Source: a virus. Taken from it: DNA of 64,000 nt. The notes beneath the pieces were generated by a model. That model was given only the letters and a program-made list of their open reading frames with translations. It searched no databases and was not told where the DNA came from. Below, piece after piece: positions 21,357-48,601 of the stretch. The stretch is taken from positions 1-64,000 of IMG/VR virus record IMGVR_UViG_3300049855_000348; one strand, written 5' to 3'. Both the position numbers and the translations under genes were made by a program. How positions within the stretch are numbered: the stretch's first letter is position 1; the number at the start of each line of letters is the position of its first letter.

Positions 21357-21360
21357 TCAT

Positions 21361-21436: not shown

Positions 21437-21469
21437 TTGCATAGCGATCTTTTTGGCTAGCATGTAACC

Positions 21470-21997
21470 ATGTCACTCAAAGATGCCCTCTTTCACTTTC
21501 GTGATCTTGGTTACTACGTTGATGATCAAGGAAATGTATTCAACCCAAGAGGAAAGATTCTTCGGTGTTCAACAAACAAAGATGGTTACAAAAGAATTAC
21601 CACAAGAATGAGAAATCATCCAGTTCATGGGGATTGGTGCCCTAAGGTTGAGGTTCACCGTCTTGCCGGTTATCAGAAGTTCGGAGACAAAATCTTCACC
21701 GAAGGACTTGAGATCTGTCACGATGATGGCGATAAGCGAAACAACGCCAAAGACAATCTGCGACTCGATACGCACAAAAGTAATATGATGGATGTTCCTC
21801 AAGAGGTAAGGATCAATAGAGCAAGACGTGCTGGTAGAGAACATGCCAAGCTAACAGATGAGCAGGTTGCTCACATTCGTTCATCTGGCATGACTCTGAA
21901 ACAGATCATGCAAACATACGGTATCAGTAAGTCTGGTGCCTCCTACGTCAGATCAGGAAAGACTTACGCCAGCCCGTGTATCCCCTCGCTTTCCTAA
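21470..21997 (+). CDS. HNH (HNH_3-type) homing endonuclease with a C-terminal HTH
   Basis: 175 aa with ...GYKRITT...EVHRLAGYQKFG...EICHDDGDKRNNAKDNLRLDTHKSN.. and LTDEQVAHIRSSGMTLKQIMQTYGISKSG. The gene is AT-richer than its surroundings and is embedded in the tRNA array. Confidence 0.75.
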   Translation: MSLKDALFHFRDLGYYVDDQGNVFNPRGKILRCSTNKDGYKRITTRMRNHPVHGDWCPKVEVHRLAGYQKFGDKIFTEGLEICHDDGDKRNNAKDNLRLDTHKSNMMDVPQEVRINRARRAGREHAKLTDEQVAHIRSSGMTLKQIMQTYGISKSGASYVRSGKTYASPCIPSLS

Positions 21998-22051
21998 AGC
22001 GGTGAAAGGGTAACTGGACACATGCAGGTTCAAATCCTGCCTCGGGTACCA
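21972..22051 (+). ncRNA. atypical tRNA-like RNA E1 (possible tRNA-Arg(CCT) lacking a D-arm)
   Basis: Acceptor gcccgtg/ctcgggt (one T:T mismatch), then 7 nt, then arm tcgct-ttCCTaa-agcgg, then 21 nt, then T-arm gcagg-ttcaaat-cctgc and A-CCA. Its 5' end overlaps the HNH gene's 3' end. Confidence 0.4.
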
Positions 22052-22054
22052 CAT

Positions 22055-22132
22055 CGGGGTCCTAGTACGGGAGTGTCTGCATACCATTCGGTCACTACAG
22101 CCTCGGCGGTTCAATCCCGCCAACCTCGACCA
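22055..22132 (+). ncRNA. tRNA-like RNA with acceptor, T-arm and CCA but a long hairpin in place of the D and anticodon arms
   Basis: Acceptor cggggtc/aacctcg (6 of 7 pairs) and T-arm ggcgg-ttcaatc-ccgcc. The body forms agtgtctg-cataccatt-cggtcact, an 8-bp stem with a T:T mismatch and a 9-nt loop. Confidence 0.4.
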
Positions 22133-22135
22133 CAT

Positions 22136-22211
22136 GCGATCGTATTTCAATTGGAAGAACACCACCCTCCGAAGGTGGAAGGTGCAGGTTCGAGTCCTGC
22201 CGATCGCGCCA
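22136..22211 (+). tRNA. tRNA-Arg(CCG)
   Basis: 76 nt. Anticodon arm ccacc-ctCCGaa-ggtgg, T-arm gcagg-ttcgagt-cctgc, CCA encoded. Confidence 0.8.
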
Positions 22212-22214
22212 TCT

Positions 22215-22290
22215 GGTGACGTAGCTCAATGGACAGAGCTTCCAGCTTCTACCTGGATGGTTGGAGGTTCGAGTCCTCCCGTCATCGCCA
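22215..22290 (+). tRNA. tRNA-Arg(TCT)
   Basis: 76 nt. Anticodon arm tccag-ctTCTac-ctgga, T-arm ggagg-ttcgagt-cctcc, CCA encoded. Confidence 0.8.
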
Positions 22291-22294
22291 TCAT

Positions 22295-22369
22295 GCTGCC
22301 ATAGCCGAGTGGTAAGGCACTTCATTCGTAACGAAGAGACCGGGTGTTCGATTCACCCTGGCAGCACCA
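22295..22369 (+). tRNA. tRNA-Thr(CGT)
   Basis: 75 nt. Acceptor gctgcca/tggcagc, anticodon loop ttCGTaa, T-arm gggtg-ttcgatt-caccc, CCA encoded. Confidence 0.7.
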
Positions 22370-22373
22370 TCAC

Positions 22374-22449
22374 GCCCCCATAGCTCAGTTGGTAGAGCAA
22401 CAGTTTTGTAAACTGTAGGTCGTCGGTTCGATCCCGACTGGTGGCTCCA
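22374..22449 (+). tRNA. tRNA-Thr(TGT)
   Basis: 76 nt. Anticodon arm acagt-ttTGTaa-actgt, T-arm gtcgg-ttcgatc-ccgac, CCA encoded. Confidence 0.8.
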
Positions 22450-22456
22450 TTTTCAC

Positions 22457-22530
22457 GCTGCTATAGTTCAGTGGTAAAACACGTCCTTGGTAAGGACGAG
22501 CCCCAGGTTCAATTCCTGGTAGCAGCACCA
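22457..22530 (+). tRNA. tRNA-Thr(GGT)
   Basis: 74 nt. Anticodon arm cgtcc-ttGGTaa-ggacg, T-arm ccagg-ttcaatt-cctgg, CCA encoded. Confidence 0.8.
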
Positions 22531-22535
22531 TTCAT

Positions 22536-22611
22536 CCATCAGTAGCGTAATTGGCAGCGCAGCGGGTTTTTACCCCGTGGGTTGTGAGTTCGACTCTCAC
22601 CTGATGGACCA
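22536..22611 (+). tRNA. tRNA-Lys(TTT)
   Basis: 76 nt. Anticodon arm gcggg-ttTTTac-cccgt, T-arm gtgag-ttcgact-ctcac, CCA encoded. Confidence 0.8.
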
Positions 22612-22617
22612 TCGCAT

Positions 22618-22693
22618 GCATCCATAGCTCAACTGGCAGAGCACTCGGTTCTTACCCAAGGGGTTGGAGGTTCAAATCCTCCTGGATGCACCA
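22618..22693 (+). tRNA. tRNA-Lys(CTT)
   Basis: 76 nt. Acceptor gcatcca/tggatgc, anticodon loop ttCTTac, T-arm ggagg-ttcaaat-cctcc, CCA encoded. Confidence 0.75.
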
Positions 22694-22707
22694 TCATTAC
22701 ATAAGTC

Positions 22708-22941
22708 ATGCCAGCATGGAAATGGATGATCCTGAAGTTCTGTACCAGAGCGCATTTCATGCGGCTCATAGCAACCTTGATCATCCTCATCGCAGGCTTT
22801 CAATCTCTCTACTACCAGAAGATTGAAGACACGTGGTTGATCCTGGTTGGTGCAGTGATGAACCACTACTTCAACCACAAAGAAGCTGCGAACGTCACGG
22901 AAGAAGACAAGAATCCGGACGACGAATGCAAGGTCGGTTAG
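22708..22941 (+). CDS. small two-TM membrane protein (hypothetical) inside the tRNA array
   Basis: 77-aa ORF with two hydrophobic segments (LIATLIILIAGF and WLILVGAVM). Its 3' end overlaps the next tRNA by 10 nt. Confidence 0.4.
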   Translation: MPAWKWMILKFCTRAHFMRLIATLIILIAGFQSLYYQKIEDTWLILVGAVMNHYFNHKEAANVTEEDKNPDDECKVG

Positions 22942-23006
22942 TTCAGCGGTAGAACGCTTCTCTTACACGGAAGATGTCGGGGGTTCGATCCCCTCACCGA
23001 CTACCA
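22932..23006 (+). tRNA. tRNA-Val(TAC)
   Basis: 75 nt. Acceptor ggtcggt/accgact, anticodon arm cttct-ctTACac-ggaag, T-arm ggggg-ttcgatc-ccctc, CCA encoded. Confidence 0.8.
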
Positions 23007-39878: not shown

Positions 39879-39967
39879 TGGCGGAAGTGGCACGAATCGA
39901 ACGTGCAAGACCCGTGAAGGTCTGTTGAGGTTCAAGCTCAGTCCCCTCGCCTATAGGGAGCACTTCC
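39879..39967 (-). tRNA. tRNA-Ser(TGA), class II
   Basis: 89 nt. Acceptor ggaagtg/cacttcc, anticodon loop ctTGAac, long variable arm agacc-ttcac-gggtct, T-arm gcacg-ttcgatt-cgtgc, CCA encoded. Confidence 0.75.
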
Positions 39968-39972
39968 ATGAA

Positions 39973-40064
39973 TGGCGGATACGGCAGGATTTGAACCTGC
40001 GGGTGACTTGCGCCACCTCCTAGTTTCGAGCTAGGTGCGATAAGCCGGGCTCTGCCACGTATCC
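39973..40064 (-). tRNA. tRNA-Ser(CGA), class II
   Basis: 92 nt. Anticodon arm cctag-ctCGAaa-ctagg, long variable arm, CCA encoded. Confidence 0.75.
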
Positions 40065-40069
40065 ATGAA

Positions 40070-40162
40070 TGGCGGATTGCTAGGGAGTCGGACCCTCAAC
40101 GTGTTTCCACGTTTCATCGCTTTCCAGGCGAGTACGGTTAGCCACCACCGTCAACACAATCC
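40070..40162 (-). tRNA. tRNA-Ser(GGA), class II
   Basis: 93 nt. Anticodon loop ctGGAaa, variable arm aacgtg-gaaa-cacgtt, T-loop tccgact, CCA encoded. Confidence 0.65.
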
Positions 40163-40167
40163 ATGAA

Positions 40168-40259
40168 TGGCGGAACGGGTGAGATTTGAACTCACGGGTG
40201 ACTTTCGCCACCTCTTCCTTAGCAAGGAAGTGCAATAGGCCAGACTCTGCCACCGTTCC
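40168..40259 (-). tRNA. tRNA-Ser(GCT), class II
   Basis: 92 nt. Anticodon arm cttcc-ttGCTaa-ggaag, long variable arm, CCA encoded. Confidence 0.75.
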
Positions 40260-40263
40260 ATGA

Positions 40264-40347
40264 TGGTCTCTGAGGTGGGACTCGAACCCACAAAGCTGCG
40301 ATGTTTAGGACCGCAAGGTGTGCCATTCCCTATGAAGCCACTCAGAG
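40264..40347 (-). tRNA. tRNA-Leu(TAA)-like, atypical (C at position 33, long D region, short variable loop)
   Basis: 84 nt. Acceptor ctctgag/ctcagag, anticodon arm gcggt-ccTAAac-atcgc, T-arm gtggg-ttcgagt-cccac, A73, CCA encoded. Confidence 0.5.
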
Positions 40348-40351
40348 AAGT

Positions 40352-40429
40352 TGGTGTCCCATGCAGGAGTCGAACCTGCAAAGATCTGCATTTTGAATGC
40401 AGCGCGTCTGCCAATTGCGCCAATGGGAC
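40352..40429 (-). tRNA. tRNA-Leu(CAA) with a short (6-nt) variable loop
   Basis: 78 nt. Leu-type D-arm tggcgcaattggcagacgcg, anticodon arm ctgca-ttCAAaa-tgcag, A73, CCA encoded. Confidence 0.65.
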
Positions 40430-40430
40430 G

Positions 40431-40507
40431 TGGTATCCACGAAGAGATTTGAACTCTTACTGTTCGGTGCCTAAGACCGATGCCTCTGCCGGTTGGGCTA
40501 CGTGGAC
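40431..40507 (-). tRNA. tRNA-Leu(TAG) with a short (5-nt) variable loop
   Basis: 77 nt. Anticodon arm tcggt-ctTAGgc-accga, T-arm aagag-ttcaaat-ctctt, A73, CCA encoded. Confidence 0.65.
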
Positions 40508-40513
40508 GTGAAA

Positions 40514-40599
40514 TGGTGGGATAGGCTGGAGTCGAACCAACAGTGGCGGTGAAGCGTCACGTTTACAGCGTGGTGAGCCTTCCAATGCTCAACTATCCC
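40514..40599 (-). tRNA. tRNA-Tyr(GTA), class II
   Basis: 86 nt. Acceptor gggatag/ctatccc, D-arm gagc/gctc, anticodon loop ctGTAaa, 15-nt variable arm, CCA encoded. Confidence 0.75.
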
Positions 40600-40609
40600 A
40601 GATGAAAAA

Positions 40610-40688
40610 TGGTACCCGTGACAGGAGTCGAACCTGCAATTTTACTACCACCTCAAGGTAGCGCGTCTGCCAATTTCGCCACACGGGC
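40610..40688 (-). tRNA. tRNA-Leu(GAG) with a short (7-nt) variable loop
   Basis: 79 nt. D-arm tggcgaaattggcagacgcg, anticodon arm ctacc-ttGAGgt-ggtag, A73, CCA encoded. Confidence 0.65.
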
Positions 40689-40691
40689 ATG

Positions 40692-40769
40692 TGGTACCGG
40701 GGGCGGGAGTCGAACCCGCAAAGAACATGGACCTGAACCATGCGCGTCTGCCTGTTTCGCCACCCCGGC
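40692..40769 (-). tRNA. tRNA-Leu(CAG) with a short (6-nt) variable loop
   Basis: 78 nt. D-arm tggcgaaacaggcagacgcg, anticodon arm catgg-ttCAGgt-ccatg, A73, CCA encoded. Confidence 0.65.
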
Positions 40770-40982: not shown

Positions 40983-41564
40983 CTATTTCTTGTGGGTGCC
41001 CTCCACGCCACGAGCGACACGGTCCATGGTGCGCTTGTGCAGCCAGAGGCGAGCAGTGTCGAGATGGTTCAGTGCGACAGCATTGTCACGGCAGGAAAAT
41101 TCTCCCTTCATGAAGCCCTCCAAACGATCGATGAGGATGGCGAGCAGGGCTTCGTGGCTGTTGCCGTTGTAGCCGGCTTCTTTCACTGGGCCGTTCTGGA
41201 AGGTGATGCGCTGGACTTTGAAGGGGGTTTTGACTTTGAACCCAAGGGAACCCATGATTGGGATCTTCGCAAAGTTGAAATCGTCCAGAATAGTGAGGGT
41301 GGTTTCTTCGTTGATGTCGAATTCGGTTCGACTCGGGCCATCCTCTTCGTTGGAATCCAACAGAGCTACAACATCTTCCCATTCTTTGTGTTGTTTCCGA
41401 ATCACCGGATCTTCAGAATCCGGTTCAGGTTCGCCATAGGGGATCAACACGACATAGTCGTGGCAGGCACCACCACTTCCCGGCTTGTCCAACACGAAGA
41501 TGCGCAAAGCCTCGTTGAGGCCGTTGACGCGGTGGGCGGTGAGTTCACGGATATTAGGACGCAT
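40983..41564 (-). CDS. hypothetical protein (conserved-looking C-terminal helical region ending ...RGVEGTHKK)
   Basis: 193-aa ORF with GGAGAA upstream of the ATG. Confidence 0.55.
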   Translation of the reverse strand: MRPNIRELTAHRVNGLNEALRIFVLDKPGSGGACHDYVVLIPYGEPEPDSEDPVIRKQHKEWEDVVALLDSNEEDGPSRTEFDINEETTLTILDDFNFAKIPIMGSLGFKVKTPFKVQRITFQNGPVKEAGYNGNSHEALLAILIDRLEGFMKGEFSCRDNAVALNHLDTARLWLHKRTMDRVARGVEGTHKK

Positions 41565-41709: not shown

Positions 41710-41737
41710 TTGACTTGGTCATGATAGCGACTACTAT
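41710..41737 (+). promoter_or_regulatory. class I-related promoter (TTGACT-N16-TACTAT), leadered
   Basis: TTGACTtggtcatgatagcgacTACTAT. The downstream ATG at 41756 is preceded by GAGGAAA. Confidence 0.55.
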
Positions 41738-41755: not shown

Positions 41756-42262
41756 ATGGCCTATCCTAACCGTGAACTCTACCTGCCGATCCTCCTAGAG
41801 GTCGAGGAGGCTGTCACCCGTCGCGGCGAGAACCGTCCACTGATCGTCGAGGCGGCCTACAAGAAGATCATCGCCGAGTGGGGTGCCAACCTCACCGAAG
41901 AGGAGCAGACCTCGCTGGGTGCCTTCCGCCTGATCATGGAGCAGTTCGCCCTGCGGAACCAGATCCAGGCCGAGGCGGCTGCGCAGATCGTCACCAAGTC
42001 GGCGGTACAGCGTTGGGGCGTCGACAACGTCCCGAACTGGGCCAACCTCACTACCATCCAGCAGACCGCTGCCCTCTTCACTCGTCTTAGCTCGAAGGCG
42101 AAAGAGATCGTCTACGAGGACATCATCTCGAAGGACGGCAAGCCACAGCCCGGCAGCACGCTGAAGTGGGATTTCCCCGATGTCGATGAGACACGGGCGA
42201 AGATCGCCAAGGTCTTCCTCGACGACATCATCGCTCAGGGTCAGGGTGCGGAGCAGCAGTGA
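41756..42262 (+). CDS. hypothetical protein
   Basis: 168-aa ORF with a Shine-Dalgarno sequence. Confidence 0.6.
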   Translation: MAYPNRELYLPILLEVEEAVTRRGENRPLIVEAAYKKIIAEWGANLTEEEQTSLGAFRLIMEQFALRNQIQAEAAAQIVTKSAVQRWGVDNVPNWANLTTIQQTAALFTRLSSKAKEIVYEDIISKDGKPQPGSTLKWDFPDVDETRAKIAKVFLDDIIAQGQGAEQQ

Positions 42263-43059
42263 AGAAGCCGATCAATCAATCCGTTGCCAAGATCATCACT
42301 GAAAACGACTGGGGTTCTTACCTCAAGTTGCCAGTTTCTGAAGATGATCTCCTGAACGAATCGCAGAATGATCGGCTCAAGCGGCTGCAACGCATTCTGA
42401 CCGCACGGCATTTCGGCATCATGAGCCCGCATCGTTCCTTCGCACATCATCAAGACATTCCTCAGAAGGGAATGCGTCCTGAAGGTGATCCTGCGATCTA
42501 TCGTGGTGATCAATCCGCCCTTCGCTTTGTCGGCGCTGACTTTCGTGGCGGCAAACAGGCGATGAAGATGACGCACAACGCCGCTGCATGGAGTCAACTC
42601 CGTCAGACCGTATCGCATCTTGGTTTCAAGCCGCTGCCGGTAACCGGAGCCTTCAAAGAGAAGGGGGGTGAACTGGGGGCGGAGGCTGCGCTGGTGATCC
42701 CAGGGACAGGTCACGGGAAAGTCCAACTTTCTCAAGCCGTCCTGGTCAACCTCGCTCGTCGCTACAACCAGGACAGCTTCATCTACGCCGGTCCCGAAAC
42801 GCAGGGCAAAGTACACCTGTTCGAGGTGTCGGCGCGAGGGAAGAGTGGCCTTCCAACCGCCTATGATCATCACTTCCCAATCGGCTCAGCAGAGACACCA
42901 TCTGATATCCGATCGCTAGTGCAGCGACTCTACAAAGCCGAAGACGATCCTCAGAAGATCCAAGGCTTGGCACAGCCACGTCGTCATGGTGAACAGCCAG
43001 TGAAACGTCCGACGTTTGGCACCCAACTCGGAAAGGGTAAGGGAATAACATTTACATGA
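42259..43059 (+). CDS. hypothetical protein
   Basis: 266-aa ORF with a GTGA overlap. Confidence 0.55.
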   Translation: MKKPINQSVAKIITENDWGSYLKLPVSEDDLLNESQNDRLKRLQRILTARHFGIMSPHRSFAHHQDIPQKGMRPEGDPAIYRGDQSALRFVGADFRGGKQAMKMTHNAAAWSQLRQTVSHLGFKPLPVTGAFKEKGGELGAEAALVIPGTGHGKVQLSQAVLVNLARRYNQDSFIYAGPETQGKVHLFEVSARGKSGLPTAYDHHFPIGSAETPSDIRSLVQRLYKAEDDPQKIQGLAQPRRHGEQPVKRPTFGTQLGKGKGITFT

Positions 43060-43589
43060 GCGAGATCCAGGTTCTTGACGGCATGCTCGACACCTCCCTG
43101 CACGATGAGCAGGGGAGAAAACATGGTGTTTTCAGACTGGTCGGGGATCCGTATAACTGGAACAAGGGCAACTGGACCTTGTTGGTTGAGTACGTTCGTG
43201 GAGTTCAACAGTTCCCGGTCAAATGGGAGTCTCCATCTGGTCGCATCGAACGCCGATCGAGAAGCTACTGGGTTGATGAGAAGGGTCTCGTTGGTCCTGA
43301 TGGATGGACTCGATACTACAGCACCAATCCAGATGCGATTCTTGAGGAAGGCTTCGCCGGCCCATCAACACCTGCCGAGCACATCTACTACAACAAGGAT
43401 GGCACAGAGGTTCTGTACCATAAGCGTTGGACGGCAAAACAGACACGTAAACGGAAGACCGAACCACCATCGCCGAACAAGTGGCCGAAGGTCTGGCCTG
43501 CCGAGAGTGTCAAGAAGCCCCGTCACCCCCGTTACATCGAGATCTCTGAATCAAACAACGTCACGCCAACCGATGTGATCTATAAGTAA
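43056..43589 (+). CDS. hypothetical protein (N-terminal SEIQVLDG motif family)
   Basis: 177-aa ORF with an ATGA overlap. Confidence 0.55.
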   Translation: MSEIQVLDGMLDTSLHDEQGRKHGVFRLVGDPYNWNKGNWTLLVEYVRGVQQFPVKWESPSGRIERRSRSYWVDEKGLVGPDGWTRYYSTNPDAILEEGFAGPSTPAEHIYYNKDGTEVLYHKRWTAKQTRKRKTEPPSPNKWPKVWPAESVKKPRHPRYIEISESNNVTPTDVIYK

Positions 43590-43592
43590 GTC

Positions 43593-44246
43593 ATGGACTT
43601 CATCGGCTTCGTCAATCGTCTGAACGAAGGTTTCGTCAGCGTCCCCAAGCAGCCATGGAAGACCAAGGAAGAAGCCCTGGCCCTGGCTGAGAAGGCGCTG
43701 CCGGCCTTCCGTCGTATCCTGATGAAGGCTGCGCCGGCTGATTCCGTGGTGAAGTACGCCATCAAGCCATCAGAGTCGATTGATGACAAACTCCAACGCT
43801 GGAAGCCTGCCGGTCGTGGTATCGACACCATGTTCGACATGCTGCGTGGTGCCATCCTGGTCCGTGACGGTGAGGAGATCCAGGACACCATTCATCGCCT
43901 GAGCCGTGGGCCAGTGGTCGCCAAGTTCGAGCACAAGGATGAGCCGAAGGATGCTCTGGGCTACTACGGCAGCTACCACATCGACCTGTACCTGCCTGAG
44001 TTCAAGGTGGTGGCTGAGGTCCAGGTGATGACCAAGAAACTCTGGGCGTACAAGAAAGAGGCGCACCGGATCTACAAGGAGCAGCGCGGTAAACCTCAGA
44101 TCGACCCTGCTGCTGCGAGCAAGTCACGGGAACTCTACCGTGTCGGCAACACGCCGAAGAAACTTACTGCGCAGAAGCCTGAGAAAGCCGATCGCGCAAT
44201 GCTGCAAGCTGCCCGTAGAGGCGAGCACCCGGACCTATCTGATTGA
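43593..44246 (+). CDS. RelA/SpoT-type small alarmone synthetase-like nucleotidyltransferase (SAS/toxSAS-like)
   Basis: 217 aa. It carries KPSESIDDKLQR, DMLRGAILV, GYYGSYHIDL and AEVQVMTKKLWAYKKEAHRIYK, in the order of the synthetase-domain motifs. Confidence 0.65.
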   Translation: MDFIGFVNRLNEGFVSVPKQPWKTKEEALALAEKALPAFRRILMKAAPADSVVKYAIKPSESIDDKLQRWKPAGRGIDTMFDMLRGAILVRDGEEIQDTIHRLSRGPVVAKFEHKDEPKDALGYYGSYHIDLYLPEFKVVAEVQVMTKKLWAYKKEAHRIYKEQRGKPQIDPAAASKSRELYRVGNTPKKLTAQKPEKADRAMLQAARRGEHPDLSD

Positions 44247-44757
44247 TGCCAGCCTTGCGGGATGCCAGCAGCAAAGCCTCGGCACCTTGAAGGTAGTTCT
44301 TCACCCATTCTGGCTTCATGGTCTTCGACCCGTCCAGTAGGTTGTCGTAGCGATCGGCGAGCTTGATCAGCACCGCATCCAACGACTTGCCCGAGAAGCC
44401 AGCGATGTAGGCGTTCTTGTCCTTGGTCCCCGGAGGCTTGGTCAGTTCACGCACCAGCTTTTGCACCCGTTCAGGGAACTCGGAGATGTCAGCCTTGGTG
44501 TCTTCGAGCACGTCGTGGAGGTAAGCCGCTGCCAGCACCTCTTTGTCCACCACACCAGCGTTCTGGAGGATCTTCACTACCCGTTCAGGGTGGACGATGT
44601 AGGGGTTCTTCCCATCCTTCCGGATCTGACCTTCGTGGGCGATGGTGGCGAATGAGCGAGCGTGTTCCAGCAGGTCGCGTTGACCATTGCCAGCGATGTG
44701 GTCCATCACATCGTGGTCATCGTTCGAGAGGGCTTCGCAGAGGATCTTCTTTTTCAT
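44164..44757 (-). CDS. HD-domain (p)ppGpp hydrolase-like protein (small alarmone hydrolase, Mesh1/SpoT-type)
   Basis: 197 aa with ATIAHEGQIRKDGKNPYIVHPERV and AAYLHDVLEDT. Its 3' end overlaps the convergent synthetase gene by 83 nt. Confidence 0.7.
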   Translation of the reverse strand: MKKKILCEALSNDDHDVMDHIAGNGQRDLLEHARSFATIAHEGQIRKDGKNPYIVHPERVVKILQNAGVVDKEVLAAAYLHDVLEDTKADISEFPERVQKLVRELTKPPGTKDKNAYIAGFSGKSLDAVLIKLADRYDNLLDGSKTMKPEWVKNYLQGAEALLLASRKAGINQIGPGARLYGQLAALRDRLSQASAQ

Positions 44758-44766: not shown

Positions 44767-44794
44767 ATGATAGCGTTAGTTTTGTCTAAGTCAA
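44767..44794 (-). promoter_or_regulatory. class I promoter (3-nt leader)
   Basis: Minus strand reads TTGACTTAGACaaaactAACGCTATCAT, with the ATG at 44757. Confidence 0.65.
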
Positions 44795-44811
44795 CCTTTT
44801 GATCGACGTTC

Positions 44812-44838
44812 TTGCGTCTACCAAAATAGCGATAGAGT
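44812..44838 (+). promoter_or_regulatory. weaker divergent promoter for dnaE (TTGCGT-N15-TAGAGT)
   Basis: The ATG at 44846 is 8 nt after the -10. There is no Shine-Dalgarno. Confidence 0.4.
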
Positions 44839-44845
44839 GATCGCC

Positions 44846-47800
44846 ATGCCGACCCTTTCCTTGCATTCCCATACTGTCTACTCCCAACGTGACTCGATCG
44901 TAAAGCCTGATGCAATAGCTACCAAGATCAAAGCCAACGGCGGGACGCACTACGCCGTTACCGACCACGGCACTGCCCAGGGCTGGCTGGCCGTCCGTGA
45001 TGCCTGCAAGAAGGCCAAGTTGATCCCGATCTATGGGGTCGAGCTTTACGTCAACGACTTCATCCTCGTTTTCAAGGAGATCCAACGACTCCGTGATGCC
45101 GCCCCCAAGAAGGAAGCCCCACAGGTCGTATTGCAGGCGATCAGGGACAAGATCCTGCCTCTGATGTCCCCAGCACAGGCCACCTACTTCACGTCGAACC
45201 TGGACGATCCCAAGGACCCTGTCGCAACCGCCAAGCAACTGATGATGCGCCTGGGCTACGGCTACGAGCATCTGGTGGCTGTGGCCGTCACCGCCCAAGG
45301 CCGGGAGAACTTGATCCGCCTACACAACAAGGGGCAGACCGACGGCAACTACTTCAAGCCGCAGGTGACCACCGACCAATGCCTTGCCGCTGCTGAGGGC
45401 ATCATTTGGACGACCGCCTGCATGGGTGGTCCGATCGCCAAACGTTTCCGCTACGACCCGACTGGCCAGGAGGCGCTGAATTACCTCAACCGCTGGCAGG
45501 CACACAAGGCGAACTTCTACCTGGAGGTCCAGCCGCTCGACCTACTCGACCAACGCCGGAACAACAAGCGCCTGATCGCTGTCTCCAAGGTGACCGGCTT
45601 CCCGCTGGTCCTGTCACAGGACAACCACCACCTGAACGAAGAGGACTGGGTTGCTCACCGTGCGCTGATGCTCTCTCAGAACGACCGTACGATCGAACAG
45701 ATCGAAGAGACCTATGCCTACCAGGGGAGCCTTTTCACCTTCACCGAACTGAAGCGCAAGCTCGGCGTCTCCACCACGTGGCAAGCGCAGGAGATCATCG
45801 AGAACGAAAAGATCGAAGTGAGGATCCCGGCTGGTCACCACTACGGGGATGTGAAGCTCCACTGGCGTACCAATGACGATGTCCGCAAACAGTGTGAGAC
45901 CACCAACCCTGAGTTGATGCCGATCATCGACGAATGCTTCGCCACCACCGATCGACTCTGCCAGGAGATCAAAGAGATCCCCTGGTCAACCAAGCATCGC
46001 CTGACGCACTATGACGACGCCAGGGCACAAGCGTTGGCAATCTGCCATCAGCGTCTGAAGGACCTTGGCTTCGATCGTGAGACCGTCAACGATGGTACTG
46101 TGGTTGTCACTGAAGGTGAAAAGCCGTCAGAGATCAAGGCCAAGTATCTCGCTTGGTTGGAGAAGGAAGACAAGGTTATCACCGCCTGTGGATTCTGGGA
46201 TTACATCTGGACGCTCTATCGAGTGACCAAGGCTGTGCAGGACGAAGGTATCCCAGTCGGCTACGCTCGTGGCTCTGGCGGTGGTTGTCTCGTGATGTTC
46301 CTCCTTGGTATCATCCGTGTGAACCCAGTGAAGTATGGTCTGTACTTCGAGCGATTCCTGAACCCGGCTCGTCTCGGTTTGGATCCGAAAACCTTGAAGC
46401 GTGTGAAGGAGATGGCGTCCTGCCCTGACGCTGACCTGGACTTCTCATCGATCAGTCGCAAGCGGGTCATCGAGATCACCGAACAGATGTTCGGCAAGGA
46501 GTTCGTGGTTCCTGTTGGAACCGTCGGCGAAGCGAAACTCAAGACCGCCATGGCCGATCTGTGCCGCGTACTCAAGATCACGCAGGCTACCTACATGCCG
46601 GTCTCGAAGGAACTGCCTGAAGACATCAATGGCGTCATGACCTTCGAGGATGCGATGAAGGTGCCGGCATTCGCCGAGTTCATCGCCAAGCATGAACTCC
46701 TGTCCAAGCTGTTGGCTCCGCTCATCGGTGTGATCCGTTCTACTGGTCAACACGCTGGCGGTGTCTGCATCGCCGACGTTCCGGTTGCCAATGCTGTGCC
46801 GGTGATCCGTGCTGGTGCCAAGGATGGTGGCAACATTGTCACCGGCTTCGGTGAGTCTGGTGCTGAGCGTGCTCTTGAATCCATCGGCTTCGTGAAGTTC
46901 GACTTCTTGGCTACTGATACTGTCGACCATGTCTCTTTGTGTGCCCGTTCGCTCTACGAAGAACATCTGGCCAACGGCGGTCAGCCGTGGGTGAAGCCTG
47001 GGGAAATTCTGCTCTACCCTGAGCAAATCCCACACTTCACCGAGAACGATCCCAACGTGATGAAGGCGATCTTCCATACCGGCAACACCGACGGCATCTT
47101 CCAGATGGAAGAACAGATCGGTAAGCAGATGGTGCAGTTGGTGAAGCCAGACACCGTCGATGAAATCTCCGACATCAGCACCATGATCCGTCCTGGTTGT
47201 TTGCAGGCGCATTGTACGTGGTTCACCAATGCCACCGGTGCGGTTGAGAACAAAGTCGGCAGTGGTCTCCACTTCGCTTACGCTGCTCGTAAGTTCGAGC
47301 GTGAACTCAACCCACCACCAGATCTACCTCAGGAAATCTTGGAGGTCTTGAAGCCAACGCACTACTGCTGCATCTACCAGGAACAGATGATGTTCCTGAT
47401 TGAGATCGTCACTGGTGGCAAGATGTCACTCGGTGAAGGTGACATCTACCGTCGTGCCGTCGAGCACTCGGCGAAGGGTGTTCCGGCAGCAATCGAGACG
47501 CTGGCCAAGATGGAAGGCGAGATGAAGGCTGCCGGTGCCTACTCACCGGACATCGTCGAGACTGTCTGCACGATCATCAAGGGTGGTGCGGCCTACTCAT
47601 TCAATAAAGCACACTCGCTGTCCTACTCGCTCTTCAGCTACGGTCAGGCGTGGTTCAAGCATTACTACCCGCACATCTTCCTGGCCAGTCACGTGAGTCT
47701 GCTCGCAGCGAAGAACAAGCTGGAGAAGGCTCACAAGATCATCAACAACGGTCGCTCGATGGGTATCGAGATCAAAGCACCACACGTCCTCCACTCGAAA

Positions 47801-48601
47801 GAGAAGGCAACGTGGGGCGCAGACAAGAAGACAATCTTCCTTCCGTTCACCACCGTCAAAGGTGTGAAGGATGAAACCGCTCTGGCAATCCCTAGACTCG
47901 CTCAGGGCTGCACCACCGTTCTCGATTTCATGCTCAAGGCTCGGAAGGATCCGGCGATCAAGAAGAATCATCTGATCGACCTCGCTCGCATCGGCGGCTT
48001 CGATGGTATGGACAATGTTCCGCGCCTCAAAACGGTTGCTGCGATCACTTACTGTCTTGCTCGTGTGACGGCTAAACAAAGCGATCAGATCTTCACCGAG
48101 TTCTGGAATCAGGCTCTGGCATTCACGTGCCTTGGCGAGATCACCAACGAACGAAAGTCACAGATCGAAGTGGAGGTGTTCGGTTCGTTCATCAACGAGT
48201 CACCACTCGACCGTATGCTGCCATGGCTCCACGAGAACGGCTGGCAACCCATGTCCCAGATCGTGCCAGAGAAGGATCAGGAATTCCCGGTGTTCTTCCT
48301 CACCACCGGTGTGACGAAGAAGGTCCACAAGACCGGCAACAGCAAGGGTAAGGAATGGCTCAAGCTGACATGCTGGGATGGTGAGGGCGTCTGCGAACTC
48401 AACATCTGGGCTCATGACCTCCAGGGAACTCCCGAGGAGGGCATCGTCGGCTACCACGGAATCATCAAGCCGAACCAAGTCTATTTGGCCATCATCCAAG
48501 CCGACGGGGAGCGCCCGGTCTCCTTGGCTCGACGCAAGGTCTACAACGCACGGGTTCCTGAGATCCGGACGACATTGGCGATCAAAAACCTGGGTAGCTA
48601 G
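44846..48601 (+). CDS. dnaE: DNA polymerase III alpha subunit (DnaE-type)
   Basis: The PHP N-terminus is MPTLSLHSHTVYSQRDS. GSGGGCLVMFLLGIIRVNPVKYGLYFERFLNP and FNKAHSLSYSLFSYGQAWFKHYYP match conserved Pol IIIa motifs. The ATG at 44846 is preferred over the track's GTG at 44837. Confidence 0.9.
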   Translation: MPTLSLHSHTVYSQRDSIVKPDAIATKIKANGGTHYAVTDHGTAQGWLAVRDACKKAKLIPIYGVELYVNDFILVFKEIQRLRDAAPKKEAPQVVLQAIRDKILPLMSPAQATYFTSNLDDPKDPVATAKQLMMRLGYGYEHLVAVAVTAQGRENLIRLHNKGQTDGNYFKPQVTTDQCLAAAEGIIWTTACMGGPIAKRFRYDPTGQEALNYLNRWQAHKANFYLEVQPLDLLDQRRNNKRLIAVSKVTGFPLVLSQDNHHLNEEDWVAHRALMLSQNDRTIEQIEETYAYQGSLFTFTELKRKLGVSTTWQAQEIIENEKIEVRIPAGHHYGDVKLHWRTNDDVRKQCETTNPELMPIIDECFATTDRLCQEIKEIPWSTKHRLTHYDDARAQALAICHQRLKDLGFDRETVNDGTVVVTEGEKPSEIKAKYLAWLEKEDKVITACGFWDYIWTLYRVTKAVQDEGIPVGYARGSGGGCLVMFLLGIIRVNPVKYGLYFERFLNPARLGLDPKTLKRVKEMASCPDADLDFSSISRKRVIEITEQMFGKEFVVPVGTVGEAKLKTAMADLCRVLKITQATYMPVSKELPEDINGVMTFEDAMKVPAFAEFIAKHELLSKLLAPLIGVIRSTGQHAGGVCIADVPVANAVPVIRAGAKDGGNIVTGFGESGAERALESIGFVKFDFLATDTVDHVSLCARSLYEEHLANGGQPWVKPGEILLYPEQIPHFTENDPNVMKAIFHTGNTDGIFQMEEQIGKQMVQLVKPDTVDEISDISTMIRPGCLQAHCTWFTNATGAVENKVGSGLHFAYAARKFERELNPPPDLPQEILEVLKPTHYCCIYQEQMMFLIEIVTGGKMSLGEGDIYRRAVEHSAKGVPAAIETLAKMEGEMKAAGAYSPDIVETVCTIIKGGAAYSFNKAHSLSYSLFSYGQAWFKHYYPHIFLASHVSLLAAKNKLEKAHKIINNGRSMGIEIKAPHVLHSKEKATWGADKKTIFLPFTTVKGVKDETALAIPRLAQGCTTVLDFMLKARKDPAIKKNHLIDLARIGGFDGMDNVPRLKTVAAITYCLARVTAKQSDQIFTEFWNQALAFTCLGEITNERKSQIEVEVFGSFINESPLDRMLPWLHENGWQPMSQIVPEKDQEFPVFFLTTGVTKKVHKTGNSKGKEWLKLTCWDGEGVCELNIWAHDLQGTPEEGIVGYHGIIKPNQVYLAIIQADGERPVSLARRKVYNARVPEIRTTLAIKNLGS

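What the first reader, a model, noticed from the sequence alone, without database searches (positions are those of the whole stretch)
43593..44757. Convergent, 83-nt-overlapping RelA/SpoT synthetase-like and HD hydrolase-like gene pair
**The pair.** A 217-aa single-domain protein has the ordered RelA/SpoT synthetase motifs (..DMLRGAILV.., GYYGSYH, EVQVMT..W....H..YK). It faces a 197-aa SpoT/Mesh1-type HD hydrolase (HEGQIRKDG.PYI.HP, LHDVLEDT). Their 3' ends overlap by 83 nt (44164..44246).

**Known biology.** Single-domain synthetases include toxSAS enzymes. Some of these make (pp)pApp or ppGpp, and others pyrophosphorylate the tRNA CCA end. Small alarmone hydrolases can act as their antitoxins, and phage-encoded examples are known.

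**Context in this window.** The pair sits beside about 40 tRNAs, several CCA-ending tRNA mimics and a MazG-like gene (17136..17612). This suggests coordinated manipulation of alarmone or tRNA-end chemistry. The antisense overlap could couple expression of the two genes.
Basis: partly seen in the sequence, partly recalled or inferred. Interest (0 to 1): 0.65.

Follow-up and report, generated by a model that had tools for sequence, protein, structure and literature searches.

The report
Phage alarmone synthetase–hydrolase gene pair
A large phage carries two tail-to-tail overlapping genes, one for a divergent RelA/SpoT-type enzyme that most likely makes an adenosine "alarmone" such as (p)ppApp and one for an enzyme that breaks such molecules down; the synthetase belongs to a family found almost only in viruses, which has not been described before and can be tested directly.

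Summary
ORFs 43593..44246 (+, 217 aa) and 44164..44757 (−, 197 aa) exist and converge with an 83-nt overlap. Five related phage contigs keep the overlap (50–83 nt).

- **Hydrolase:** a clear Mesh1/SAH-type HD enzyme with all catalytic residues.
- **Synthetase:** below Pfam's cut-off on its own, but profile, fold and motif tests place it firmly in the RelA/SpoT synthetase fold with catalytic residues intact.
- **Family:** about 600 sequence clusters. It turned up in many viral contigs but in only two MAG contigs among 185,579 cellular genomes. Its ATP-donor site resembles Tas1, not the canonical form.
- **Linkage:** 13 of 26 lineages have an HD hydrolase nearby, in varied orientations. Eight of these are Aph1-type, the (p)ppApp-specific family. 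Seven proteins fuse synthetase and hydrolase, in both domain orders.

Best reading: a phage module in which the synthetase makes (p)ppApp-type 3'-pyrophosphorylated adenosine nucleotides and the hydrolase degrades them. The hydrolase has its own conserved promoter.

The tRNA-end alternative is not excluded, because the family often sits in phage tRNA gene clusters. The product is inferred, not shown. I rate this a new variant of a known kind, of moderate to high interest.

The parts
43593..44246 (+). Small alarmone synthetase (SAS)-like gene, 217 aa. It belongs to a divergent RelA/SpoT-synthetase family found almost only in viral contigs. The core is residues ~20-186. The C-terminal tail (~187-217) has low model confidence and lies in the overlap.
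   Evidence: ORF. Pfam RelA_SpoT E=8.6e-5, 23.2 bits, below the cut-off of 27. Family profiles hit RelP, RelQ, YwaC, Rel and Tas1. AF2 model pLDDT 84. Foldseek top hits are all RSH synthetases: Tas1, SAS1/2, RelP, CapRel. Conserved K58, S62, K66, D82, R85, G123, Y124, G126, H129, E142, Q144.
44164..44757 (-). Small alarmone hydrolase (SAH) gene, 197 aa, Mesh1/SpoT-type HD pyrophosphohydrolase. It is the only minus-strand gene between plus-strand neighbours.
   Evidence: HD_4 46.4 bits against a cut-off of 27.2. MESH1 3nr1 E=1.8e-13, bacterial SAHs and Rel hydrolase domains. TIGR00691 N-terminal region. phrog_990. Invariant H56, H81-D82, E85-D86, K132, D135, N139; Mesh1-like R46-K47-D48.
44164..44246 (.). 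83-nt convergent 3' overlap of the two coding regions.
   Evidence: Coordinates. Overlaps of 83, 80, 56 and 50 nt in relatives L037, L036, L003 and L001. The SAH C-terminal helix encoded here is conserved widely. The SAS tail is variable and has pLDDT ~50. No unusual RNA structure.
44767..44794 (-). Sigma-70-like promoter candidate for the SAH gene (TTGACT-16-TATCAT). Its -10 element lies 9 nt from the ATG, so the mRNA has a very short leader or none.
   Evidence: Consensus scan, 10 of 12 matches. The -35 element and spacing are conserved upstream of the SAH gene in L036, L001 and L003.
41710..41737 (+). Sigma-70-like promoter candidate (TTGACT-16-TACTAT) in front of the four-gene plus-strand block 41756..44246 that ends with the SAS gene.
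   Evidence: Consensus scan, 9 of 12 matches. It lies 19 nt upstream of ORF 41756. The block genes abut or overlap by 4 nt. Conservation in relatives was not checked.

Best explanation
The pair is a phage-encoded module that makes and degrades an alarmone.

**Synthetase.** The 217-aa protein is an active small alarmone synthetase of a divergent RSH subfamily found almost only in viruses. It uses ATP as pyrophosphate donor, through a Tas1/Apk-like donor site, and transfers the pyrophosphate to the 3'-OH of a purine nucleotide. The product is most likely (p)ppApp from an adenosine nucleotide, possibly with some (p)ppGpp.

**Hydrolase.** The 197-aa Mesh1-type HD enzyme removes that 3'-pyrophosphate. 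It acts as the product-degrading antagonist, in the way ATfaRel acts on FaRel or Aph1 on Apk2. This limits or times the effect of the synthetase during infection.

**Expression.** The hydrolase is transcribed from its own conserved sigma-70-like promoter, converging on the operon that ends with the synthetase. The scan finds no terminator between them. The 3' overlap is mainly tight convergent packing. It could also cause transcriptional interference.

**Shown:** gene structure, folds, catalytic residues, conserved linkage and fusions.
**Inferred:** enzymatic activity, the product, the direction of control and the benefit to the phage.
For: **1. Fold and active site.**
- Family profiles hit RelP, RelQ, YwaC, Rel and Tas1 (E=1e-6 to 1e-4).
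- 136 of 148 family members hit Pfam RelA_SpoT.
- The AF2 model (pLDDT 84) matches only RSH synthetases; Tas1 is top at E=1.5e-6 and CapRel gives TM 0.60.
- K58, S62, K66, D82, Y124, H129, E142 and Q144 are invariant or nearly so in 148 sequences.

**2. Hydrolase.** It is intact and Mesh1-like.

**3. Functional linkage.**
- 13 of 26 SAS lineages have an HD hydrolase in the flank, 11 of them within 1 kb, in convergent, divergent and co-directional layouts.
- Seven family members are fused to an HD domain, in both orders.
- phiM12 and phiN3 carry an Aph1-like gene elsewhere in the genome.

**4. Adenosine chemistry.**
- Eight linked hydrolases and five fused domains are Aph1-type: 7smg E=8e-40 for the profile and 4.8e-23 for the fusion P0039.
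- Aph1 enzymes hydrolyse (p)ppApp, and most do not hydrolyse ppGpp (PMC10083569).
- SAS active-site motifs are the same whichever hydrolase type is linked.

**5. Donor site.** It resembles Tas1/Apk: no Arg in syn1, D-x-x-R in syn2, no Arg in syn4. CapRel, FaRel2 and the (p)ppGpp synthetases keep R-x-K, D-x-x-G-x-R and E-x-Q-x-R (PMC11782079; PMC12226406).

**6. Published pattern.** Among characterised toxSASs, the (pp)pApp producers FaRel and Apk2 have linked hydrolases, while the tRNA-modifying ones are neutralised by pZFD- or Panacea-type antitoxins (PMC11782079, PMC7229694).

**7. Promoter.** The SAH promoter candidate is conserved in relatives.
Against: - No biochemical data exist for any member of this family.
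- The window's own hydrolase is Mesh1/SAH-type, not Aph1-type, and would also accept (p)ppGpp or tRNA-PP.
- The syn3 motif is S-x-H, as in guanosine-using RSH enzymes, not the G-x-N of Apk1/Apk2.
- The window protein is below Pfam's cut-off. Single-sequence searches of PDB, NCBIfam and PADLOC found nothing.
- Half of the lineages show no hydrolase within the flank examined.
- The family is basic (median pI 9.5) and lies near phage tRNA genes in 9-10 of 26 lineages. Both points fit an RNA substrate.
- An Aph1 partner implies adenosine 3'-pyrophosphate, a description that also fits a pyrophosphorylated tRNA A76.
- If both enzymes were active together they would form a futile ATP-consuming cycle, and the control that would prevent this is unknown.
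Confidence: 0.55

Rival explanations
1. tRNA-end chemistry. The SAS pyrophosphorylates the 3'-CCA adenosine of tRNAs (host or competitor), as CapRel, FaRel2 and PhRel do. The SAH or Aph1-type partner removes the modification. The module belongs to the phage's tRNA and translation toolkit.
For: - SAS genes lie within 6 kb of phage tRNA genes in 9-10 of 26 lineages. In L004 and L030 they are embedded in the tRNA cluster, and the window's pair is 2.8 kb from an 8-tRNA cluster.
- phiN3 has a tRNA nucleotidyltransferase and a peptidyl-tRNA hydrolase within 4 kb.
- The family is basic, with median pI 9.5.
- SAHs such as ATfaRel neutralise tRNA-modifying toxSASs (PMC7229694).
- An adenine-specific Aph1 partner also fits A76-3'-PP.
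- CapRel gives one of the best structural superpositions (TM 0.60, rmsd 3.2).
Against: - The donor-site motifs differ from both proven tRNA pyrophosphokinases for which I had data: CapRel has R-x-K, DIGGCR and EVQLRT, and FaRel2 has R64, K66, D90, G93 and R95 (PMC11782079).
- The family profile does not reach CapRel or FaRel2 in the PDB at E<=1, although it reaches Tas1 and the (p)ppGpp synthetases.
- Known tRNA-modifying toxSASs pair with pZFD or Panacea antitoxins, not with hydrolases (PMC11782079).
- One family member is fused to a nucleoside diphosphate kinase.
- tRNA regions of large phages may simply be places where accessory genes accumulate.
- Blocking tRNAs gives no obvious advantage to a phage that needs translation.
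Confidence: 0.2
2. A split Rel for (p)ppGpp. The SAS makes (p)ppGpp and the SAH degrades it, which lets the phage set the host's stringent-response state.
For: - The syn3 motif is S-x-H, as in guanosine-using RSH enzymes (PMC12226406).
- The window's SAH has the Mesh1-like R-K-D motif of ppGpp-capable hydrolases.
- The profile hits to YwaC, RelP and Mtb Rel are slightly better than the hit to Tas1.
- One source names a close homologue 'ppGpp synthetase'.
Against: - Eight linked and five fused hydrolases are Aph1-type. All twelve tested homologues hydrolysed ppApp, and only two showed modest ppGpp activity (PMC10083569).
- All three canonical Arg residues of the ppGpp-synthetase donor site are replaced in the way seen in Tas1.
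- Motifs do not differ between SAS proteins linked to SAH-type and Aph1-type partners.
Confidence: 0.12
3. Two independent functions that happen to be neighbours. The SAH is a stand-alone counter-defence enzyme against host alarmone- or toxSAS-based immunity, as proposed for phage SAHs. The SAS is inactive or does something unrelated.
For: - Stand-alone phage SAHs neutralise all tested toxSASs (PMC7229694).
- Jumbo-phage HD-alarmone phosphodiesterases are proposed counter-defences (PMC7824862).
- SAH and Aph1 genes are far more common in phages (213 and 389 records) than this SAS family (11 records).
- An Acb2/Tad1-like gene lies nearby.
Against: - Linkage recurs in 13 of 26 lineages with two different hydrolase lineages and several orientations, and there are seven fusions in both domain orders.
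- Catalytic residues of the SAS are under strong conservation.
Confidence: 0.08

Closest known systems
FaRel–ATfaRel (Cellulomonas marina): a (pp)pApp-producing toxSAS with a small alarmone hydrolase as type IV antitoxin (PMC7229694, PMC11782079)
   Same: A single-domain RSH synthetase is genetically linked to a single-domain SpoT/Mesh1-type HD hydrolase that would degrade its product. The inferred chemistry uses adenosine as acceptor.
   Different: - FaRel sits in a co-directional three-gene bacterial operon with a second, Tis1-like protein antitoxin. Here the genes converge and overlap, each with its own promoter, and I found no Tis1- or IapK-like gene.
- The host here is a ~220-kb phage.
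- The SAS family turned up in only two MAG contigs among cellular genomes.
- I could not place the SAS on the published RSH tree.
Apk2–IapK–Aph1 of MuF polymorphic toxins in temperate phages, and Tas1/Apk1–Tis1 (PMC10083569, PMC12226406)
   Same: - Phage-encoded (p)ppApp synthetase with a hydrolase that gives enzymatic immunity.
- The donor-site variants are shared: no Arg in syn1, D-x-x-R in syn2, no Arg in syn4.
- Relatives of the window's SAS are linked or fused to Aph1-type hydrolases.
   Different: - No MuF or PAAR delivery domain and no IapK/Tis1 immunity gene.
- syn3 is S-x-H, not G-x-N, and syn4 is V-M, not Y-H or V-N.
- The window's hydrolase is Mesh1/SAH-type, not Aph1.
- The carriers are large phages with their own replication genes and tRNA sets, not small temperate prophages.
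CapRel, FaRel2, PhRel: tRNA-CCA pyrophosphokinase toxSASs (PMC9712102, PMC11782079)
   Same: Same fold (CapRel TM 0.60). Small, basic proteins. Association with phages and with translation.
   Different: They have the canonical donor site (R-x-K, D-x-x-G-x-R, E-x-Q-x-R), whereas this family has the Tas1-like variant. They pair with pZFD or Panacea antitoxins, not hydrolases. The family profile does not detect them at E<=1.
Long bifunctional Rel/SpoT enzymes
   Same: An HD hydrolase and an RSH synthetase act on the same 3'-pyrophosphorylated nucleotide. Some family members are HD–SYNTH fusions in the same order as Rel.
   Different: There are no TGS, ACT or ribosome-binding regulatory domains. 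The fused HD domain is Aph1-type, which is (p)ppApp-specific. In the window the two activities are on separate, convergently transcribed genes.
Stand-alone phage SAHs (Salmonella phages PVP-SE1 and SSU5) and jumbo-phage HD-alarmone phosphodiesterases (PMC7229694, PMC7824862)
   Same: A phage-encoded Mesh1/SpoT-type hydrolase that can degrade alarmones.
   Different: Those are interpreted as counter-defence against host alarmone systems and have no phage-encoded synthetase partner. Here the hydrolase is paired with a synthetase.

Membership tests
RelA/SpoT homologue (RSH) synthetase domain / small alarmone synthetase | Match to Pfam PF04607 RelA_SpoT at or above the gathering score | tested here: not met
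   The window protein scores 23.2 bits against a cut-off of 27 (E=8.6e-5, covering 109 of 113 profile positions). At family level, 136 of 148 relatives match at E<=0.01, the best at 2.8e-12.
RelA/SpoT homologue (RSH) synthetase domain / small alarmone synthetase | RSH synthetase fold (five-stranded sheet framed by helices) | tested here: met
   AF2 model pLDDT 84, pTM 0.75. All 50 listed Foldseek PDB hits are RSH synthetases (Tas1, SAS1, SAS2, RelP, CapRel, Rel), probability 1.0, TM 0.5-0.6. Family profiles hit the same proteins by sequence.
RelA/SpoT homologue (RSH) synthetase domain / small alarmone synthetase | Ordered syn1-syn5 motifs with catalytic Lys/Ser/Lys, Mg-binding Asp, G-loop Tyr, Glu-x-Gln and His | tested here: met
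   K58, S62, K66, D82, G123-Y124, H129, E142-x-Q144, H158 and Y161 are invariant or >=90% conserved in 148 sequences and align with the motifs of YwaC, RelP, Rel, Tas1 and CapRel. Three canonical Arg residues are replaced.
RelA/SpoT homologue (RSH) synthetase domain / small alarmone synthetase | ATP-dependent 3'-pyrophosphokinase activity | not testable with these tools
   Needs an enzyme assay.
Adenosine 3'-pyrophosphokinases (Apk1/Tas1, Apk2) | Apk-type syn2 (Arg three residues after the Mg-binding Asp, no D-x-x-G-x-R) and no Arg in syn1 or syn4 | tested here: met
   D82-M-L-R85-G-A; A56 at the syn1 Arg position; E-V-Q-V-M146. Tas1 has D-L-A-R-N-T, A-P-I-K and E-I-Q-V-N. The Apk2 signature RYT is from PMC12226406.
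Adenosine 3'-pyrophosphokinases (Apk1/Tas1, Apk2) | Apk-type syn3 G-x-N | tested here: not met
   The family has G-Y-Y-G-S-[HY]-H, that is S-x-H as in (p)ppGpp synthetases, with one extra residue.
Adenosine 3'-pyrophosphokinases (Apk1/Tas1, Apk2) | N-terminal delivery domain (PAAR or MuF) and a Tis1/IapK protein immunity gene | tested here: not met
   The protein is a single domain of 217 aa. The upstream ORFs have no Pfam, PHROG or PDB match to Tis1 or IapK, and ORF 43056..43589 occurs only in the closest relatives. The sequence searches were not sensitive enough to exclude a remote Tis1-like fold.
Adenosine 3'-pyrophosphokinases (Apk1/Tas1, Apk2) | Genetic linkage to an Aph1-type (p)ppApp hydrolase | tested here: inconclusive
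   Met in 8 related lineages and 5 fusions. Not met in the window clade, whose partner is Mesh1/SAH-type.
toxSAS toxin–antitoxin module with SAH antitoxin (FaRel–ATfaRel type) | SAS adjacent to an SAH in a conserved arrangement | tested here: met
   Adjacent and overlapping, and conserved in five relatives.
toxSAS toxin–antitoxin module with SAH antitoxin (FaRel–ATfaRel type) | Co-directional bi- or tricistronic operon in a bacterial chromosome or prophage | tested here: not met
   The genes converge and each has a promoter candidate. The contig is a 220-kb phage. The family signature was found in only 2 MAG contigs among 185,579 genomes.
toxSAS toxin–antitoxin module with SAH antitoxin (FaRel–ATfaRel type) | Toxicity of the SAS and its neutralisation by the SAH | not testable with these tools
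   Needs co-expression assays.
tRNA-CCA pyrophosphokinase toxSAS (CapRel, FaRel2, PhRel, PhRel2) | Canonical donor site (syn1 R-x-K, syn2 D-x-x-G-x-R, syn4 E-x-Q-x-R), as in CapRel and FaRel2 | tested here: not met
   Direct alignment with CapRel-SJ46 (L041 2944..4065). FaRel2 residues R64, K66, D90, G93 and R95 are from PMC11782079.
tRNA-CCA pyrophosphokinase toxSAS (CapRel, FaRel2, PhRel, PhRel2) | tRNA binding and 3'-end pyrophosphorylation | not testable with these tools
   Only indirect hints: basic pI and proximity to tRNA genes.
Small alarmone hydrolase / Mesh1 (HD_4) – the 197-aa protein | HD_4 profile above the cut-off and similarity to solved SAH or Mesh1 structures | tested here: met
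   46.4 bits against 27.2. 3nr1 E=1.8e-13, 5vxa 1e-12, 7qoc, 4yf1 and 6yvc.
Small alarmone hydrolase / Mesh1 (HD_4) – the 197-aa protein | Metal and catalytic residues: H…HD…ED…D…N | tested here: met
   H41, H56, H81-D82, E85-D86, D135 and N139 are present and invariant or nearly so in 11 aligned partners.
Aph1 (p)ppApp-specific hydrolases – the 197-aa protein | Aph1 signature (Asp at the D24 position, D116/R119, short ~150-aa form) | tested here: not met
   The window SAH has R46 at the D24 position, is 197 aa long, and scores 25 bits to 7smg against 54 bits to MESH1. The partners of more distant SAS relatives do meet this signature.

The most novel reading that the evidence does not exclude
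This SAS family, seen almost only in viruses, together with its interchangeable Aph1- or Mesh1-type hydrolases and the Aph1–SAS fusions (which would be Rel-like bifunctional enzymes for (p)ppApp), forms a (p)ppApp or adenosine-3'-pyrophosphate system run by the phage. Large, probably virulent phages would use it for host takeover, not as a toxin–immunity pair. Its frequent position inside phage tRNA gene clusters would then be functional. It might counteract ppGpp at stringently controlled tRNA and rRNA promoters, or reversibly cap tRNA 3' ends. The convergent, promoter-to-promoter layout in this clade would act as an expression toggle between synthesis and degradation.
Probability: 0.25. Interest if true: 0.8.

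Novelty: new variant of a known kind. Interest (0 to 1): 0.58.

Why it matters
(p)ppApp is known mainly as a product of bactericidal toxins (Tas1/Apk1, Apk2, FaRel), and its physiological roles are an open question. Aph1-type (p)ppApp hydrolases are widespread, yet most have no known cognate synthetase (PMC10083569). Phage SAHs are currently read only as counter-defence.

A synthetase family found almost only in viruses, repeatedly linked or fused to these hydrolases in large phages, supplies candidate missing synthetases. It suggests that phages themselves make, and not only destroy, adenosine alarmones.

Cultivable relatives exist (Sinorhizobium phages phiM12 and phiN3, Paraglaciecola virus GD1). 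The idea can therefore be tested by enzyme assays and by nucleotide profiling during infection.

Tried and rejected
- **Single-sequence searches of the SAS.** PDB gave only chance hits (E 0.3-0.75). NCBIfam and PADLOC gave nothing. Family profiles were needed.
- **Megablast of 42000-46000 against deposited phages.** No match. The DnaE-like polymerase reaches only 23-28% identity to known phages, so the phage lineage and host remain unknown.
- **Third component.** ORF 43056..43589, just upstream of the SAS, has no Pfam, PHROG or PDB match and occurs only in the two closest relatives. I rejected it as a conserved third component.
- **Bidirectional terminator or structured RNA in the overlap.** z-scores run from −0.9 to +0.9 and there is no terminator-like site. 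Rejected.
- **Substitution counts in the overlap, window against L037.** SAS frame 4 synonymous and 8 non-synonymous; SAH frame 7 and 6. Too few to decide which frame is constrained. Wider alignments show that the SAH C-terminus is the conserved one.
- **Cellular genomes.** The first genome-contig scan with the 148-sequence alignment failed for lack of a conserved stretch. The repeat with 30 sequences used one narrow peptide pattern, so the count of two loci is a lower bound.
- **Published RSH nomenclature.** No supplements are held for PMC7229694, and the Apk1-homologue lists of PMC12691689 contain no phage entries. Subfamily naming is left open.
- **Aph1 identity for the window's own hydrolase.** Rejected.
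- **Horizontal-transfer signature.** The GC content of the pair (0.56-0.58) matches its surroundings.
Full report
**1. The observation**

The two ORFs are exactly as described: 43593..44246 on the plus strand (217 aa, ATG) and 44164..44757 on the minus strand (197 aa, ATG). Their 3' ends overlap by 83 nt, and the quoted motifs are present.

The hydrolase is the only minus-strand gene in this stretch. On one side is a plus-strand block of four tightly packed ORFs (41756..44246) whose last member is the synthetase. On the other is a plus-strand DnaE-like polymerase gene (44837..48601). The GC content of the pair (0.56-0.58) matches its surroundings.

The window belongs to a contig of 220,489 bp. 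It holds 33 tRNA genes and has no close relative among deposited phages.

**2. The hydrolase**

The 197-aa protein matches Pfam HD_4 well above the cut-off (46.4 bits against 27.2) and phrog_990 'metal-dependent phosphohydrolase'. It also matches the hydrolase end of TIGR00691 spoT_relA.

Among solved structures it matches human and fly MESH1, bacterial small alarmone hydrolases and Rel hydrolase domains (E down to 1.8e-13). The metal and catalytic residues H41, H56, H81-D82, E85-D86, D135 and N139 are all present and conserved among partners. The base and phosphate-contacting motif is R46-K47-D48, as in MESH1.

It is not an Aph1-type enzyme. It scores 25 bits to 7smg against 54 bits to MESH1, and it has Arg where Aph1 has the specificity-determining D24 (PMC10083569).

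**3. The synthetase**

On its own the 217-aa protein is a borderline case.
- Pfam RelA_SpoT gives E=8.6e-5 and 23.2 bits, below the cut-off of 27, although it covers 109 of 113 profile positions.
- The single sequence finds no RSH structure in the PDB, no NCBIfam family and no PADLOC family.

Family-level evidence settles the question.
- A word-indexed search found only ten relatives. An exhaustive HMMER search with their profile found 602 cluster representatives at E<=1e-3 and 231 at E<=1e-10.
- Profiles of 10 and of 148 sequences hit RelP, RelQ/YjbM, YwaC, Mtb Rel and Tas1 (E=1e-6 to 3e-4), with the motifs in register.
- 136 of the 148 members hit RelA_SpoT individually.
- An AlphaFold model (pLDDT 84, pTM 0.75) retrieves only RSH synthetases from the PDB. 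Tas1 is first (E=1.5e-6, 22% identity) and CapRel gives the best superposition (TM 0.60, rmsd 3.2 Å).
- From the viral structure library it retrieves the phiN3 'RelA/SpoT family protein' (TM 0.67, rmsd 2.0 Å).

The catalytic positions are invariant or nearly so across 148 sequences: K58, S62 and K66 (syn1); D82 (Mg); G123-Y124 and H129 (G-loop); E142-x-Q144; H158 and Y161.

**4. A distinct family found almost only in viruses**

The family has its own signature:
- syn1 [VIF]-x-x-[DGNA]-[IV]-K-[SP]-x-x-S-x-x-[DSN]-K
- syn2 D-[VLI]-[LV]-R-[GSA]-A
- syn3 G-Y-[YF]-G-S-[HY]-H
- syn4 E-[ILV]-Q-V-M-T-[KR]-[KR]-L-W

I aligned it with the proven tRNA pyrophosphokinase CapRel-SJ46 (fetched from NC_031129), Tas1, YwaC, RelP and Mtb Rel.
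- **Donor site.** The three canonical Arg residues of the ATP-donor site are the Arg of R-x-K, the Arg of D-x-x-G-x-R and the Arg of E-x-Q-x-R. The family lacks all three and has a new Arg three residues after the Mg-binding Asp. Tas1 shows the same pattern (A-P-I-K, D-L-A-R-N-T, E-I-Q-V-N), and the same is reported for Apk2 (RYT at syn2; PMC12226406).
- **Canonical enzymes.** CapRel (R-L-K, D-I-G-G-C-R, E-V-Q-L-R-T) and FaRel2 (R64, K66, D90, G93, R95; PMC11782079) keep the canonical site.
- **syn3.** Here the family has S-x-H like the (p)ppGpp synthetases, not the G-x-N of Apk1/2.

Distribution:
- Homologues at 28-38% identity occur in a few deposited large phages: Sinorhizobium phiM12, phiN3, phiM7 and phiM19; Variovorax V45v66; Desulfovibrio 7757; and Paraglaciecola GD1. 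Some are annotated 'RelA/SpoT family protein'.
- IMG/VR contains 24 loci, mostly on contigs of 50-256 kb.
- A pattern scan of one genome for each of 185,579 species found only two loci, both on MAG contigs. The scan used one narrow peptide pattern, so this count is a lower bound.
- I found no paper that describes this family.

**5. Linkage to hydrolases**

I clustered the SAS genes of all fetched loci at 70% identity, which gave 26 lineages.
- Thirteen have an HD hydrolase within the flank, eleven of them within 1 kb.
- The layouts differ. The window clade is convergent and overlapping (−83, −80, −56 and −50 nt). L012 is convergent without overlap. The P0010 clade is divergent. Seven lineages are co-directional.
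- The hydrolases belong to two lineages. Five are long Mesh1/SAH-type and eight are short Aph1-type.
- A profile of seven short partners matches the (p)ppApp hydrolase Aph1 (7smg) over its full length at E=8.3e-40. The next hit is at 7e-18.
- The short partners carry Asp at the D24 position. Paraglaciecola gp94 has D-K-A, exactly as Aph1 does.

Seven family members are fusion proteins, and these were not used to train my models.
- Aph1–SAS: P0027, P0032, P0039 and P0111. P0039 matches 7smg at E=4.8e-23.
- SAS–Aph1: P0134.
- SAS–SAH: P0050 and P0052.

phiM12 and phiN3 lack an adjacent hydrolase but encode an Aph1-type gene at the far end of the genome (E≈1e-26). The SAS active-site motifs do not differ between proteins linked to SAH-type partners, Aph1-type partners or no nearby hydrolase.

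Linkage in several orientations, replacement of one hydrolase lineage by another, and fusions in both orders together argue that the hydrolase acts on the product of the synthetase.

**6. What the product is likely to be**

Aph1 enzymes hydrolyse pApp, ppApp and pppApp. Aph1 itself has no detectable activity on (p)ppGpp. All twelve tested homologues hydrolysed ppApp, and only two showed modest ppGpp activity (PMC10083569).

Among characterised toxSASs, the (pp)pApp producers FaRel and Apk2 have linked hydrolases. The tRNA-modifying enzymes are controlled by pZFD or Panacea antitoxins that block the donor site (PMC7229694, PMC11782079). Together with the Tas1-like donor site, this favours an adenosine 3'-pyrophosphokinase that makes (p)ppApp.

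Three caveats apply.
- The S-x-H syn3 motif and the Mesh1-type partner in the window clade also fit guanosine acceptors.
- 'Adenosine 3'-pyrophosphate' also describes a pyrophosphorylated tRNA A76.
- The family is basic (median core pI 9.5) and lies within 6 kb of phage tRNA genes in 9-10 of 26 lineages. In L004 the pair sits inside a 24-tRNA cluster, with a tRNA-Gly gene starting 3 nt after the SAS stop codon. In L030 tRNA genes flank the SAS on both sides. The window's pair is 2.8 kb from an 8-tRNA cluster. phiN3 has a tRNA nucleotidyltransferase and a peptidyl-tRNA hydrolase within 4 kb.

I could not build a proper null model for this proximity. tRNA regions of large phages may simply collect accessory genes.

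My estimates are about 0.55 for (p)ppApp-type nucleotide synthesis (possibly with (p)ppGpp as well), 0.2 for tRNA-end modification, 0.12 for (p)ppGpp only, and 0.08 for unrelated functions.

**7. The overlap and expression**

A sigma-70-like site, TTGACT-16-TATCAT (10 of 12 matches), lies at 44794..44767 on the minus strand, 9 nt upstream of the SAH start codon. A similar site, TTGACT-16-TACTAT, lies at 41710..41737, 19 nt upstream of the plus-strand block. The scan found 3 promoter-like sites against 1.2±0.8 in shuffles.

The SAH promoter's −35 element and position are conserved in L036, L001 and L003. There the −10 element is only 6 nt from the ATG, which suggests a leaderless or nearly leaderless mRNA. 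No terminator-like site or unusually stable RNA structure lies between the two genes. Convergent transcripts are therefore expected to overlap.

Inside the overlap the SAH frame encodes a C-terminal helix (…LYxxLxALRDRL…) that is conserved even in distant SAHs. The SAS frame encodes a tail that varies in sequence and length and has low model confidence (pLDDT about 50).

I therefore read the overlap mainly as the SAS reading frame running on into the conserved 3' end of the SAH gene in a tightly packed convergent pair. Transcriptional interference or antisense pairing is possible but not shown.

**8. Neighbourhood**

- The minus-strand ORF 40983..41564 is homologous (E≈1e-60) to genes in L003, L036 and L037 that carry precomputed Acb2_Tad1_hairpin hits. 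Its own Pfam scan was negative.
- ORF 42259..43059 has a weak S-AdoMet-lyase hit (E=3.7e-4). The distant P0010 contigs carry a clear S-AdoMet_lyase gene 3 kb from their pair.

This gives the region a counter-defence flavour. It fits a role in host takeover or counter-defence but does not define one.

**9. Comparison with what is known, and verdict**

The logic of a synthetase plus a product-degrading hydrolase is that of FaRel–ATfaRel and Apk2–Aph1. Phage-encoded SASs and SAHs are both known.

New here:
- a stand-alone SAS subfamily with a Tas1-like donor site, seen almost only in viruses;
- its occurrence in large phages with their own replication genes and tRNA sets, not in prophage toxin cassettes;
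- interchangeable Aph1- or Mesh1-type partners, and Aph1–SAS fusions;
- frequent placement in tRNA gene regions;
- in this clade, a conserved convergent overlapping layout with separate promoters.

The product and the benefit to the phage are inferred, not shown. I rate it a new variant of a known kind, with interest about 0.58.

Noticed in passing
window 40983..41564 (-): A 193-aa ORF just upstream of the SAS operon is homologous (E~1e-60) to genes in L003, L036 and L037 that carry precomputed Pfam Acb2_Tad1_hairpin hits (the anti-CBASS/anti-Thoeris sponge family). It matches phrog_2428 (E=1.8e-28). Its own Pfam scan at E<=0.01 was negative, perhaps because of an insertion at about residues 54-114.
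   Followed up: partly
window 42259..43059 (+); L004 4656..5399 (-): The 266-aa ORF two genes upstream of the SAS has weak hits to the S-adenosylmethionine lyase family (E=3.7e-4, below the cut-off) and to DUF3293. The distantly related P0010 contigs carry a clear S-AdoMet_lyase gene about 3 kb from their SAS–Aph1 pair. This may be a recurring counter-defence neighbourhood.
   Followed up: partly
window 44795..44850; L001, L003 and L036 equivalents: The intergenic region between the SAH and the DnaE-like gene holds a conserved block, TAGCGATAGA[GT]TGATCGCCATGCCGAC. A −10-like TAGAGT/TAGATT lies 7 nt before a conserved ATG at 44846. The polymerase probably starts at this ATG, not at the GTG at 44837, and its mRNA may be leaderless. 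L001 and L003 also have TTGACT at the −35 position.
   Followed up: partly
window 18491..23006 (+) and 39879..40769 (-): There are two tRNA clusters, 25 genes on the plus strand and 8 on the minus strand (all Ser, Leu and Tyr, the long-variable-arm class). That makes 33 tRNAs, not about 40. The minus-strand cluster is also present next to the pair in L037 with the same gene order.
   Followed up: partly
L004 5768..16535; L030 1215..8578; L018 7198..7410; L022 5450..5532: SAS-family genes lie within or beside phage tRNA gene clusters in 9-10 of 26 independent lineages. In L004 a tRNA-Gly gene starts 3 nt after the SAS stop codon. No null model was computed, and the reason is unknown.
   Followed up: partly
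proteins P0023 (NIF–SAS) and other members of alignment A2: Five family members are fused to an NLI-interacting-factor-like (HAD, DxDxT) phosphatase domain, and one to a nucleoside diphosphate kinase domain. These may be alternative antagonist or partner enzymes for the SAS.
   Followed up: no
deposited phage genomes: Aph1-type hydrolase genes occur in 389 deposited phage records (many from Pseudomonas, Aeromonas and Klebsiella phages) and Mesh1/SAH-type genes in 213. The SAS family occurs in only 11. Most phage alarmone hydrolases therefore have no phage-encoded synthetase of this family.
   Followed up: no
It does match PHROG nucleotide pyrophosphohydrolase and MazG-like families (phrog_671 E=2.5e-19). 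It is 26 kb from the pair, just upstream of the large tRNA cluster.
   Followed up: partly
L001 7151..7426, L003 7594..7863, L036 7753..8025: In relatives, a small gene (89-91 aa) with PAAR_motif hits follows the DnaE-like polymerase gene directly. I did not check the equivalent position in the window (after 48601).
   Followed up: no
L010 3153..4460 (Variovorax phage V45v66): In this phage the ORF containing the SAS domain is 435 aa as I called it. It extends beyond the RelA_SpoT match (residues 134-236) on both sides with sequence of unknown function. The record is unannotated and the true start codon is uncertain.
   Followed up: no
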